From the NCBI RefSeq assembly GCF_006345805.1, contig NW_021827946.1, positions 1 to 9,443 of the forward strand: a DNA stretch of 9,443 nt, given 5' to 3'. Below, piece after piece: positions 4,095-9,350 of this stretch (the first letter of the stretch is position 1; every line of letters starts with the position of its first letter). Both the position numbers and the translations under genes were made by a program. The notes below the pieces were generated by a model. It had not been told where the DNA came from. It saw nothing but the letters and a program-made list of their open reading frames with translations, and did no database searches. This stretch comes from Octopus sinensis (lineage: Eukaryota).

Positions 4095-4682
4095 CAGGGC
4101 AAAGAGGACGGACGTTATTGAAATGGCTATTACTCAGCCCCAGTGGAAGTGACATATGACCGACAGGTACCATTCGTCTTAGCATTTTTCTTCTTTTCAG
4201 GTAAAGACGATAGAGTATCGCGTGTTTGCCTACGACAGTTATGTGAAGAACAACGAGTCTATCGCAGCAGTTCAGCGTGAGTTTCAGCGCCACTTCAATA
4301 TTCACCGAAATTCACGACGTACACTAATGATTAAGGGACTAGTGAGGCATTCCAATCAACTTGGCATTGATAATCGATCGGTAAGGCGTATTTTGCATGA
4401 AGACCTGCATTCCCACCCGTACAAATTGGTCATTGGGATACAGTTGAAACCATGTGACTATGCACAGAGCAATGCTTGAAAGAGTGGAGGCCAGCTTCAA
4501 ACAACGCCTTCAGAAATGCATCAATGAAAACGGACGCCACATGACGGATGTTGTTTTCCACACGTGATTTTGATAAATTCTAATTCAATACGAACACATT
4601 GATGTCAATTAAGTTTGCTTGCAGCTAAAATTAATGATTTTGTGAATTTTTCAAAAACGTCCATTCTCTGTGCCCCAGCCTG
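4095..4682 (+). mobile_element. Internally deleted, non-autonomous Tc1/mariner-superfamily DNA transposon (588 bp)
   Basis: Left TIR CAGG-----GCAAAGAGGACGGACGTTATTGAA (4095-4122) versus the reverse complement of the right TIR CAGGCTGGGGCACAGAGAATGGACGTTTTTGAA (4650-4682), differing by 4 mismatches and a 5-nt gap. TA flanks both ends (4093-4094, 4683-4684), and transposase remnants lie inside. Confidence 0.9.
4201..4567 (+). pseudogene. Transposase remnant: N-terminal DUF4817-like HTH region plus extreme C-terminus, catalytic DDD/E domain missing
   Basis: The frame from 4201 reads TIEYRVFAYDSYVKNNESIAAVQREFQRHFNIHRN...LGIDNRSVRRILHEDLHSHPYKL...QLKPCDYAQ. A second frame at 4472-4567 reads MLERVEASFKQRLQKCINENGRHMTDVVFHT*, resembling the RLxxCIxxNGxH C-terminal motif of these transposases. 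There is no ATG at the N-terminus. Confidence 0.85.
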
Positions 4683-4980: not shown

Positions 4981-5208
4981 GTGTTGAGCTAGCAGAATCG
5001 TTAGCTCCCTGGACAAAATGCTTAGTTGTATTTCGACCGTCGCTACGTTCTGAGTTGAAATTCCGCCGAGTTCGGCTTTACCTTTCATCCTTTCGGGTTC
5101 GATAAAAAGAATTACCAGTTGAACACTGGGGGTCGATGTAATCGACTGACTCCCATCCACAAAATTTCAAGCCTTGTACCTTTAGTAGAAAGGATTATCA
5201 TTATTATT
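4981..5208 (+). mobile_element. tRNA-derived SINE with Nin/Deu-like central domain, full length, tail type B
   Basis: A-box-like TAGCAGAATCG (4990-5000), degenerate B-box GAGTTGAAATTCC (5052-5064), core CCTTTCATCCTTTCGGGTTCGATAAA and an ATT-repeat tail. Homologous to the reverse complement of 1155-1312. Confidence 0.9.
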
Positions 5209-7356: not shown

Positions 7357-8316
7357 TGAATTTATACATAGGTTTATATCCACGTACGTACGGAGAGAGA
7401 TACAGAAGAACAAGTGAAACTTTTTGTGCATATACTTATGTGTATACACACATAGACACAAACACGCACACGTATATATATATATATGTATATATTTACA
7501 AGGAAAGATACAAAGATTTTTGTGAAGCTAAGGATTCATCCGTCGTTCGATCGCGTTTCGCTGCTTCCGTTTTTCTGAGCAAATGTGAAAACGGAAACCG
7601 GAAACTCAGTGTAGCGACAGAGGGAAGGAAGCCTCAGCTTCGGCTCTATGAATAATGCCTACTACGCATATTTTGAACTCACTTTGGTCTCTTGTTTGTA
7701 AATTACAATACACTACACATATACGTATATATGTATATATATTTATATATACGTAGTATATATGCATGCATGTATGTATGCATATATATGTACATATGTA
7801 TGTATACACAGACACACATATATATATGCAAAAACTTCCGTTTACAAGTCTATTTTTAGGGCAGCTGATATATATGGAAATAAGGAATAAACCCTCCAAT
7901 ATTTCCCTAATCAATATGACGTCTATCTTCCACTTTTTAAAATACCGTTTATGCTTCTTAGCTCCTTCATTGTTTTTCATTTATTGGATCTATTGTCATG
8001 AATTTTATTACTTGCTCATCGTGTTCTATTATAGTAGATCTTAAATTTTTCAGTCTAAACTTACAGACCCAAAAATGCATATTAAAATTATATACGGCCT
8101 CGTCTTTGAAAACCCAAATATTTTGTAAGATGGTGACAGTATTTGAATGTTTACGCTACATGTTCGCTCAATATACTACGTTGACTTGTATGCCGAAAAA
8201 TACATTATATGATTTTCATGAATTATATATGAATGCAATTGCAGCGTGGAAGGTGTTTGTAAGCCATTTAAGAAACACACAAAAGCCGTTCAATTCACTT
8301 CAACATTTAAGTTTAA

Positions 8317-8366
8317 TTTGTCAAAATATTTTCGTCGCTAAAATCCGCGACCTGTTCACTGACAAA
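8317..8366 (-). ncRNA. Minimal type I hammerhead-like motif, G3:C8 variant (copy 1)
   Basis: The minus strand reads TTTGTCA-GTGAACA-G-GTCGC-ggatttta-GCGAC-GAA-AATATT-T-TGACAAA. This gives a 7-bp stem I, a 5-bp stem II and a palindromic stem III. Confidence 0.6.
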
Positions 8367-8388
8367 AATCCGTGCTGCATCTGAGAAA

Positions 8389-8433
8389 GTCAGTGAACAG
8401 GTCGCGGTCTTAAAGCGACGAAAATATTTTGAC
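8389..8433 (+). ncRNA. Minimal type I hammerhead-like motif, G3:C8 variant (copy 2)
   Basis: GTCA(8389-8392)-GTGAACA(8393-8399)-G-GTCGC(8401-8405)-loop-GCGAC(8415-8419)-GAAA(8420-8423), with palindrome AATATT (8423-8428), T8429 and TGAC (8430-8433). Confidence 0.6.
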
Positions 8434-8740
8434 AAATTAAACTTAAATGTTGAAGTGAATCGAACGGCTTTTGTGTGTTTCTTAAATGGCTTACAAACAC
8501 CTTCCACGCTGCAATTGTTTTCGTTTCAGCACACGATCTCAGATCAAATCACTTGCTATGCGAGTACATCCCCTATATATGAATGATTATCTTTAAACGA
8601 ACCAGACTGGTTGAATGTCTTGTTAATTCTGTATGATTATGGGGAAATATTTAGGAACGTAGATCTAAGTATAACTACAACGGCTTATCCCCGTATTCAA
8701 CGATCTGTATTTCTACAATTATTCGTTGTAGACATGTAGT

Positions 8741-8909
8741 TACTCTTTTACTCTTTTACTTGTTTCAGTCATTTGACTGCGGCCAAGCTGGAGCACTGCC
8801 TTTAGTCGAGCAAATCGACCCCAGGATTTATTCTTTGTAAGCCTAGTACATATTCTATCGGTCTCTTTTGCCGAACCTCTACGTTACGGGGACGTAATTA
8901 CACCAGCAT
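8741..8909 (-). mobile_element. SINE 3' half (different body), tail type A
   Basis: The minus strand ends ...CCTGGGGTCGATTTGCTCGACTAAAGGCAGTGCTCCAGCTTGGCCGCAGTCAAATGACTGAAACAAGT(AAAAGAGT)2. The tail aligns with 1103-1142. Confidence 0.85.
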
Positions 8910-8910
8910 T

Positions 8911-9173
8911 GACAACGAGGATGATGCTGATGCCGATGCTGATGATGATGAAGAGGAAGAGGTTGACGACGACTCTGACGCCGATGGTGATTATGATAAT
9001 GACGACGACGATGACGACGATGATGATGACGATGATGACGACAGTGATTTTGAAAACGCTGATGAAAATGATGATGATGATGACGTTGATGGAGATGATT
9101 ATGTCGACAACGACGACATCAACGATGATGAGGAGGACGACGACGATGTAAACGATGATGATGATGATGATAA

Positions 9174-9210
<37 letters not shown>

Positions 9211-9230
9211 GATGACGATGATGATGATGG

Positions 9231-9271
<41 letters not shown>

Positions 9272-9350
9272 GTGGTGGTGATGATTTTGATGGTGATGAT
9301 GATGATGATGGTGATGATGGTGGTGGTGGTGATGATGATGATGATGATGA
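8911..9350. repeat. Degenerate (GAT/GAC/GGT)n trinucleotide array
   Basis: About 440 bp of in-phase GAN-type triplets, more diverged in the 5' half. Confidence 0.9.

What the first reader, a model, noticed from the sequence alone, without database searches (positions are those of the whole stretch)
8317..8433. Two back-to-back hammerhead-like motifs with a compensatory G3:C8 catalytic core
Seen: each arm of the inverted repeat has the order stem I, GUGAACA, stem II (GUCGC/GCGAC), GAAA, palindromic AAUAUU, U, stem I'. GUGAACA differs from the canonical CUGANGA only at positions 3 and 8. Established: C3 and G8 form a tertiary Watson-Crick pair in the active hammerhead, and the swapped G3:C8 pair can retain activity. 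Minimal type I hammerheads with a short palindromic stem III occur in Penelope-like elements and retrozymes and are thought to cleave as dimers. Seen: apart from one base, all differences between the two 128-bp arms fall in the predicted loop II, the part expected to be free to vary. Inference: this is a variant ribozyme family that CUGANGA-based searches would miss. Caveats are an extra G between A9 and stem II, a weak UUU cleavage triplet and only 4 bp of stem I in the plus-strand copy.
Basis: partly seen in the sequence, partly recalled or inferred. Interest (0 to 1): 0.88.

Follow-up and report, generated by a model that had tools for sequence, protein, structure and literature searches.

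The report
Swapped-core hammerhead in Penelope-type retrotransposon
This is a short dead copy of a very abundant Penelope-type jumping gene whose RNA carries a hammerhead (self-cutting RNA) motif with one core base pair swapped (G3:C8), a form I found in print only as a lab-made mutant; it likely cuts slowly at best, and cutting is untested.

Summary
[quoted passage not shown] The family has about 10,000 motif copies and long RT + GIY-YIG reading frames; the motif lies 56 nt before the start codon. G3:C8 is the family's master state. Related PLEs carry the same fold at the same place with C3:G8, U3:A8 or U3·G8 and compensatory stem changes, so the fold and the 3:8 pair are selected. The extra G and U17 are normal PLE-hammerhead features, not defects. 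Against strong activity: 107 of 122 sampled arms were copied from uncut RNA, none in excess starts at the cut site, and a G3·G8 sub-lineage also spread. Copy ends point to capped transcripts starting 19 nt before the motif and, in some insertions, two different RNA templates. No natural G3:C8 found in the papers I could search (two key papers not held); this scan noted G3-C8 candidates earlier in other genomes. Verdict: new variant of a known kind; cleavage untested.

The parts
8224..8235 (.). Left target-site duplication (12 bp)
   Evidence: Exact direct repeat of 8574-8585; distinct 10-13-bp duplications at 9 of 22 family insertions examined, most others sit in (TA)n
8236..8390 (-). Inverted arm: 5'-truncated copy of the element's pseudo-LTR without the tail; includes the 25-nt leader 8364-8388 and 2 nt of junction microhomology
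   Evidence: Alignment; the leader is the natural upstream sequence in long copies
8317..8366 (-). Hammerhead motif, minus copy: 7-bp stem I, G3:C8 core, 8-nt loop II; predicted cut between 8324 and 8323
   Evidence: cut site inferred from hammerhead numbering
8382..8382 (-). Inferred transcription start of the element (A of AGATG, 19 nt before stem I); this arm runs 6-8 nt past it
   Evidence: Family 5' ends cluster here and often carry a non-genomic G; TATA-like box about 28 nt upstream in long copies; inference
8389..8433 (+). Hammerhead motif, plus copy: cut short inside stem I (4 bp), G3:C8 core, 9-nt loop II; predicted cut after U8429
8389..8517 (+). Direct arm of the pseudo-LTR, ending at the first family 3' end (inferred reverse-transcription start site 1)
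   Evidence: 52 of 122 sampled arms end here
8486..8572 (+). First 29 codons of the PLE RT/GIY-YIG reading frame (MAYKHLPRCNC...)
   Evidence: Translation; in L295 the same sequence runs on into the ORF
8518..8573 (+). PLE 'tail' (56 nt) ending at the second family 3' end (inferred start site 2)
   Evidence: 70 of 122 sampled arms end here; fixed end seen in 30 loci
8574..8585 (.). Right target-site duplication (12 bp)

Best explanation
The stretch is a short, likely dead insertion of an endonuclease-bearing Penelope-like retrotransposon, and each arm carries that element's minimal type I hammerhead, whose G3:C8 pair replaces the usual C3:G8 and is predicted to allow slow, dimer- or protein-assisted cutting. 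Shown: PLE anatomy, linkage to an RT + C-terminal GIY-YIG frame, family-wide G3:C8, and covariation of stems I, II and the 3:8 pair across related elements. Inferred: the element is transcribed from a TATA/initiator promoter just upstream, so the hammerhead is the first fold of the capped mRNA, 56 nt before the start codon. The protein nicks AT-rich DNA on both strands and starts reverse transcription inside the RNA at one of two sites about 150 and 210 nt from the cap; two such short cDNAs, sometimes from different RNA molecules, are joined head to head, giving this inverted pair. Most inserted copies come from uncut RNA, so cutting is likely slow or conditional; it would remove the cap from a monomer or split tandem transcripts, acting as a brake or processing step rather than as a step needed for every insertion. 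Two motifs would pair through the palindromic AAUAUU in tandem (same-strand) copies, not in this inverted pair.
For: About 10,000 motif copies: 9,946 matches of an 18-mer at <=1 mismatch, 0 for the reversed control. G3 in 120 of 121 and C8 in 111 of 121 aligned copies; non-CpG variation 1.5% in the core against 19.8% in loop II and 3.7% in the 3' flank. 8 of 9 long-frame copies have the motif 0.9-1.1 kb after the stop, the ninth only as an inverted 5' arm; open frames up to 1,042 aa. pLTR-ORF junction in L295. Sister family (same branch, SH-aLRT 99, quick tree): ACUA/UAGU, U3:A8 in 18 of 23 rows, same extra G, GUUGC/GCAAC, U17. Family X: C3 in 24 of 24, G8 in 22 of 24, GUCAC/GUGAC; family Y: U3 in 31 of 36, G8 in 26 of 36. 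In 80 metagenome loci with related ORFs, a scan open to any 3:8 pair gave 16 hits, 15 Watson-Crick (12 C:G, 2 U:A, 1 A:U), against 4 hits in 5 one-strand shuffles. 14 of 14 same-clade elements pair at 3:8; permutation 4e-5, not corrected for kinship. In a PLE hammerhead the lab-made C3G/G8C double mutant partly restores cutting, which needs the PLE protein (PMC11167929). Non-genomic G before AGATG in 13 of 19 positional-sample arms that end there (p 8e-5) and 22 of 34 others, next base variable; such a G marks cap copying in L1 (PMC11702581).
Against: No cleavage assay. 107 of 122 positionally sampled arms run through the predicted cut site; only 2 start at it, and both are explained by stem I microhomology. 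205 copies have a G3·G8 mismatch, about six times the matching change at position 3 (about 32, from 16 of the first 100 of 202 rows); 7 such copies share a loop type and have unrelated flanks, so a mismatched sub-lineage transposed. Family Y has a U·G wobble. PLE minimal hammerheads cut weakly even with the normal core (PMC4209133), and hammerhead mutants did not reduce insertion in vitro. Within-family conservation is weak evidence: copies are young, dead copies mutate neutrally, and part of the sample was picked by the motif. No run on record as RNA was available, so expression and the start site are inferred.
Confidence: 0.6

Rival explanations
1. The motif is a hammerhead-derived fold that no longer cuts in this family. 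It is kept as a structure (for example a protein-binding or translation-control element at the mRNA 5' end), and the 3:8 pair drifts because only the shape matters.
For: Uncut templates dominate (107 of 122); G3·G8 sub-lineage spread; four different 3:8 states among related families in one genome; hammerhead mutants do not affect PLE insertion in vitro (PMC11167929); Cervera and de la Pena leave non-cleaving roles open.
Against: All catalytic positions (G5, A6, A9, G12, A13, A14, A15.1-U16.1) are kept, N17 is never G in the 16 homolog hits, and the 3:8 pair, a tertiary contact of the active core (PMC3088659), is repeatedly restored to a pair. The G3·G8 group is about 2% of copies and could have been moved in trans.
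Confidence: 0.33
2. The two opposed motifs work together at this locus as a host-adopted switch or a cis dimer.
For: Both copies keep an intact core.
Against: Opposite strands cannot dimerise in cis; read-through gives a 128-bp hairpin; the plus copy is cut inside stem I; the same layout occurs at dozens of sampled loci with varying junctions; intact cores are expected of young copies.
Confidence: 0.03
3. It is a DNA-transposon MITE with long terminal inverted repeats, and the hammerhead likeness is chance.
For: Long inverted repeat and target duplication.
Against: Arms have unequal, site-specific 3' ends, variable 10-13-bp duplications, variable inner junctions, and continue into an RT/GIY-YIG frame; the motif covaries across distant PLEs; 0 chance hits in 10 Mb.
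Confidence: 0.01

Closest known systems
Minimal type I hammerheads of metazoan Penelope-like elements (min-HHR; Cervera and de la Pena 2014, PMC4209133; read: main text parts 1-2 of 4, supplement parts 1-2 of 3)
   Same: Position in the pseudo-LTR, short stem I, unpaired base between 9 and 10.1, G10.1-C11.1, palindromic stem III, frequent U17, copies in opposite orientation 100-700 bp apart.
   Different: Core is G3:C8. Their 56-motif alignment shows C3:G8, U3:A8 and one U3·G8, no G3. No cephalopod is in it.
Natural U3:A8 core variants (Perreault et al. 2011, PMC3088659, passages; Schistosoma Cercyon PLEs, PMC4209133)
   Same: Compensatory change at the tertiary 3:8 pair in nature; a sister family here has exactly this.
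   Different: G3:C8 needs two transversions with a mismatched intermediate; not listed in the passages read.
Engineered C3G/G8C rescue mutant (Anolis Poseidon PAc hammerhead, Frangieh et al. 2024, PMC11167929, parts 1-2 of 4; review PMC8495972, passages; PMC3884650, passages)
   Same: Same swapped pair; partial rescue of cutting; tail explained by two internal RT start sites inside the ORF start; AT-rich targets; uncut RNA the main template.
   Different: Here it is the natural master state of about 10,000 copies; tail is 56 nt rather than 30-40; the motif lies wholly in the UTR.
Endonuclease-bearing PLEs of the Neptune/Nematis type (Craig et al. 2021, PMC8557442, passages; Arkhipova et al. 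2013, PMC3846280, passages)
   Same: RT then C-terminal GIY-YIG, CX2-5CxxC linker, CCHH motif, (TA)n preference, inverted pLTR, tail, partial tandems, TATA plus initiator in the pLTR.
   Different: Long microsatellite-filled 3' UTR (about 1 kb). Neptune versus Nematis not resolved here (Nematis by recall of motifs only). Copy ends fit sense, capped templates rather than the antisense self-priming proposed in PMC3846280.
Non-LTR retrozymes (PMC7229834, passages; bioRxiv 10.64898/2026.07.22.740005, part 1 of 5)
   Same: Type I hammerhead in an animal repeat, PLE link.
   Different: Not a tandem non-coding monomer; it is the end of a coding PLE.

Membership tests
EN+ Penelope-like element | Single ORF with RT and C-terminal GIY-YIG endonuclease | tested here: met
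   Frames of 715-1,042 aa with DKS, YVDD and YIGET motifs in family copies. Pfam finds nothing on the family's own ORF but RVT_1 in 6 and GIY-YIG in 5 of 28 aligned homologs; the 46-50% identical sister EN is over the GIY-YIG cut-off.
EN+ Penelope-like element | Pseudo-LTRs in tandem or inverted layout, overlapping the ORF start | tested here: met
   Inverted arms, partial tandems and the pLTR-ORF junction in L295
EN+ Penelope-like element | Optional 3' tail from two RT start sites; variable target duplication; AT-rich targets | tested here: met
   Two 3'-end clusters, 52 and 70 of 122 arms; 10-13-bp duplications or (TA)n
Neptune/Nematis clades | CX2-5CxxC linker and CCHH motif | tested here: met
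Nematis (versus Neptune) | Placement in an RT tree with named reference elements | not tested
   No named references were in hand; the tree holds only unnamed relatives
PLE minimal type I hammerhead | Three-way junction with stems I and II, supported by covariation | tested here: met
   Compensatory stems in sister family and family X, and in metagenome relatives
PLE minimal type I hammerhead | Unpaired base after A9, G10.1-C11.1, palindromic stem III, N17 not G | tested here: met
   Sequence against PMC4209133
Hammerhead ribozyme | Literal core consensus C3 U G A N G8 A | tested here: not met
   G3 and C8; Rfam no match. Hence filed as a variant, not a plain member
Hammerhead ribozyme | Watson-Crick pair between positions 3 and 8 | tested here: met
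   G:C in the family; 15 of 16 homolog hits paired; exceptions: G·G in about 2% of copies, U·G in family Y
Hammerhead ribozyme | Site-specific self-cleavage after N17 | not testable with these tools
   No bench test; the genomic footprint shows no excess of copies starting at the cut site
Non-LTR retrozyme | Short non-coding tandem monomer | tested here: not met
   Continues into a coding PLE

The most novel reading that the evidence does not exclude
The first natural, genome-scale hammerhead with the swapped G3:C8 catalytic pair, active as a protein-assisted dimer; together with U3:A8, A3:U8, U3·G8 and C3:G8 families in the same genome it shows all four Watson-Crick states of the core pair in one animal's PLEs, a natural series for tuning cleavage rate. 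The same copies record the PLE mechanism in vivo: internal priming near the 5' end of capped, uncut mRNAs, on both target strands, from two separate RNA molecules.
Probability: 0.4. Interest if true: 0.7.

Novelty: new variant of a known kind. Interest (0 to 1): 0.52.

Why it matters
Hammerhead searches fix CUGANGA (at most adding U3:A8), so about 10,000 motifs in this genome, and a further A3:U8 family, are invisible to them; PLE hammerhead counts and claims of absence would need redoing with a paired 3:8 descriptor. What PLE hammerheads do is an open question: here related families differ at one catalytic pair on an almost identical frame, and a mismatched sub-lineage exists, which makes a direct test of whether cutting matters to the element. 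The copy ends also discriminate between models for the head-to-head PLE layout (sense capped templates, sometimes two of them, against antisense self-priming).

Tried and rejected
Rfam: no hammerhead family matched. Idea that the family is a 1-kb non-autonomous element: dropped once the EN and ORF were found upstream. Idea that the 61-codon open frame across the motif is the ORF start: wrong frame; the ORF starts at 8486, so the core is not under coding constraint. Search for C3:G8 members with the family's own 3' half: 3 hits, all inversion-junction artefacts. Idea that G3·G8 is the ancestral intermediate: the most diverged copies sampled are G3:C8 and G8 occurs in several backgrounds. Idea that CTAAC...TTTCTCAG is a 3' splice site giving the 5'-end cluster: not favoured, because the base upstream of the extra G varies and no spliced joint was among the rows shown; not excluded. 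Sequencing runs: no RNA holder listed; only contigs, which cannot show ends or strand. Solved-structure search gave only weak RT hits. MAFFT alignment of the short motifs was poor and one row was mis-cut; pairs were counted by parsing instead. Literature: 10 searches; G3-C8, G3C8, C3G/G8C, GUGANGA and GUGANCA turned up only engineered mutants. Lunse et al. 2017 (PMC5785218) and Przybilski and Hammann 2007 (PMC1986816) were not held, and supplements of Perreault 2011, Craig 2021 and the 2026 preprint were not seen; any of these may list a natural G3:C8.

Full report
Observation. Plus strand: stem I GUCA 8389-8392, GUGAACA 8393-8399, an extra G, stem II GUCGC/GCGAC around a 9-nt loop, GAA, palindromic AAUAUU, U8429, UGAC. 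The minus copy (8366-8317) has a 7-bp stem I and an 8-nt loop. The arms differ only in loop II and one further base. A descriptor that allows any Watson-Crick 3:8 pair hit these two sites only, and 0 sites in 10 Mb of matched random sequence. Rfam did not report a hammerhead. Folding alone is unremarkable (z -2.0 and -1.5), as expected for so small a motif.

What the locus is. The insertion spans 8236-8573 between two copies of a 12-bp target duplication. The genome is a 2.72-Gb animal assembly; the closest named homolog of the element's protein is an Octopus vulgaris protein at 57%, so an octopus is inferred. The motif is a large repeat: 4,645 exact matches to one pattern and 9,946 to an 18-mer at up to one mismatch, with 0 for reversed controls. 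[quoted passage not shown] Of 9 such copies, 8 have the G3:C8 motif 0.9-1.1 kb after the stop and one only as an inverted 5' arm. In L295 the arm and tail run on into the ORF, which fixes the start codon at window 8486 and puts the motif in the UTR, 56 nt upstream. Inverted pLTR, tail, partial tandems, variable duplications and (TA)n targets are the described PLE layout (PMC8557442; PMC3846280). Pfam does not recognise the family's own ORF, only some homologs. The linker and CCHH motifs place it with Neptune/Nematis; which of the two was not tested.

The back-to-back layout is not a functional unit. The copies face opposite ways, so a transcript has one sense copy; read-through folds into a long hairpin of -219.8 kcal/mol. 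The plus copy is cut inside stem I. The two loop II forms are subfamily markers found across the genome, so their difference says nothing about selection here. It does suggest two templates: arms had discordant loop lengths in 7 of 24 insertions and 2 of 19 from a positional sample (those 2 probably one event), always in the same direction.

Is the fold selected? Within the family, G3 is in 120 of 121 and C8 in 111 of 121 aligned copies; non-CpG variation is 1.5% in the core, 19.8% in loop II, 3.7% in the 3' flank. That is weak evidence, since copies are young and partly chosen by the motif. Comparison across elements is strong. The sister family (EN 46-50% identical; joined with SH-aLRT 99 in a quick tree of 16 rows, rows under 250 aa left out) has ACUA/UAGU, U3:A8 in 18 of 23 rows, the same extra G, GUUGC/GCAAC, AAUU and U17. 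Two older families share the GUCA/G/GUCRC frame: family X with C3 in 24 of 24 and G8 in 22 of 24, family Y with U3 in 31 of 36 and G8 in 26 of 36. In 80 metagenome loci encoding related proteins, a scan open to any 3:8 pair found 16 motifs, 14 on the sense strand: 12 C:G, 2 U:A, 1 A:U (inside the ORF match, possibly chance) and 1 C·A (near copy of a C:G hit); shuffles gave 4 hits in five one-strand passes. The extra base was in 15 of 16 and U17 in 7 of 16. Five more were read by eye. For 14 same-clade elements all pair at 3:8 (7 C:G, 6 U:A, 1 G:C; permutation 4e-5); kin share states, but U:A rows are scattered on the tree. A separate PLE family has A3:U8.

The base between A9 and G10.1 is listed as a conserved feature of PLE minimal hammerheads (PMC4209133), and U17 is frequent in that paper's 56-motif alignment. 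The 4-bp stem I is only truncation of the plus arm.

Does it cut? For: every catalytic position other than 3 and 8 is kept, the pair is restored, and in the Anolis PLE hammerhead the C3G/G8C double mutant partly rescues cutting, which needs the element's protein (PMC11167929; also PMC8495972). Against: taking the first 100 matches of a downstream pattern along contig C1 (86 loci, 122 arms), 107 arms run through the predicted cut, 2 start at it (both share stem I microhomology with the partner arm) and 13 start 3' of it. Uncut RNA is thus the main template, as in vitro. Also 205 copies have G3·G8 against 202 with any change at 3 (16 of the first 100 are C3) and 159 with A or U at 8; 7 G·G copies share a loop and have unrelated flanks, so a mismatched form was mobilised, perhaps in trans. 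G·G is not the ancestral state: the most diverged copies sampled are G:C. No RNA reads were available.

Mechanism. 83 of the 122 arms end within 23 nt 5' of stem I and only 5 go further. Where an arm ends at AGATG, the next base is G in 13 of 19 cases (genomic C; p 8e-5 against 0.25) and in 22 of 34 in other loci, some of them related; the base beyond varies. An extra G at full-length 5' junctions reflects cap copying in L1 (PMC11702581, passages), and a TATA-like box lies about 28 nt upstream in long copies; a TATA plus initiator in a pLTR is described. I infer a transcription start 19 nt before stem I. 3' ends fall in two clusters, 52 and 70 arms, about 56 nt apart inside the ORF start, as for the two RT start sites of PAc. 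So most copies would be short cDNAs of the 5' end of capped, uncut mRNA, primed internally on each nicked target strand and joined head to head. The hammerhead would be the first fold of the mRNA; slow cutting through AAUAUU-paired dimers in tandem transcripts, or with protein help, would decap or split the RNA. These steps are inferred.

Novelty. PLE minimal hammerheads and natural U3:A8 are published (PMC4209133; PMC3088659). G3:C8 appeared only as an engineered rescue in ten searches; Lunse 2017 and Przybilski 2007 were not held and several supplements were not seen. Earlier notes of this scan mention G3-C8 candidates behind PLE RTs in other genomes (unchecked), none for this sequence; two notes gave me the lead to test copy ends at the cut site. 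Other papers seen as passages only: PMC6765202, PMC3884650, PMC6155905, PMC10085705, PMC2377424, PMC7229834.

Verdict. Observation confirmed; interpretation partly supported. New variant of a known kind, with good comparative support for the fold and no proof of catalysis. Interest 0.52.

Noticed in passing
L079 / L274-L293 (about 1570-1610 in L274): A separate, young GIY-YIG PLE family has an A3:U8 core (6-bp stem I, 2-bp stem II, ACCGGU, C17) in nearly all of 29 arms listed; I found no natural A3:U8 in the papers read.
   Followed up: partly
L344-L373 (family Y) and L374-L393 (family X): Two older families share this family's GUCA / extra G / GUCRC frame but have U3·G8 and C3:G8 cores; family X links to a related EN (L389), family Y's ORF was not found in 1.5-kb flanks.
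   Followed up: partly
window 8236-8573; L002, L005, L008, L010, L016, L023, L474, L475: The two arms of one insertion carry different subfamily loop II types: 7 of 24 insertions in the sample and 2 of 19 in the positional sample (those 2 probably one duplicated event), always 9-nt loop on the tail arm and 8-nt loop on the inverted arm; 0 of 19 with an 8-nt tail arm. Suggests two RNA templates per insertion.
   Followed up: partly
L125-L127, L135, L136, L139, L143; L302-L306; L311: G3·G8 copies: about six-fold excess over the matching change at position 3, in several subfamily backgrounds, with one sub-lineage concentrated on contig C20. Unexplained.
   Followed up: partly
L068, L077, L081-L083, L085, L074, L075: Other, more distant GIY-YIG PLE families in this genome have U3:A8 cores, so non-canonical cores may be the rule among its PLEs.
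   Followed up: partly
L194 4960-5020; L196 2490-2540: Metagenome relatives with further core variants: U15.1-A16.1 (L194) and C9 with U3:A8 (L196).
   Followed up: no
L310, L315, L317, L311, L312: Arrays of 3-7 short arms in tandem at single loci; same-strand tandems like these are where hammerhead dimers could form.
   Followed up: no
window 4183-4680: Broken frame resembling a Tc1/mariner transposase piece (recalled likeness, not searched).
   Followed up: no
window about 1060-1310, 4990-5200 and 8750-8910: Copies of abundant short interspersed repeats that also flank many fetched loci; 1217-1310 and 4992-5085 are 80% complementary.
   Followed up: no
window 8920-9350: Long (GAT)n-type array giving a 198-aa poly-Asp open frame; probably a microsatellite.
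   Followed up: no
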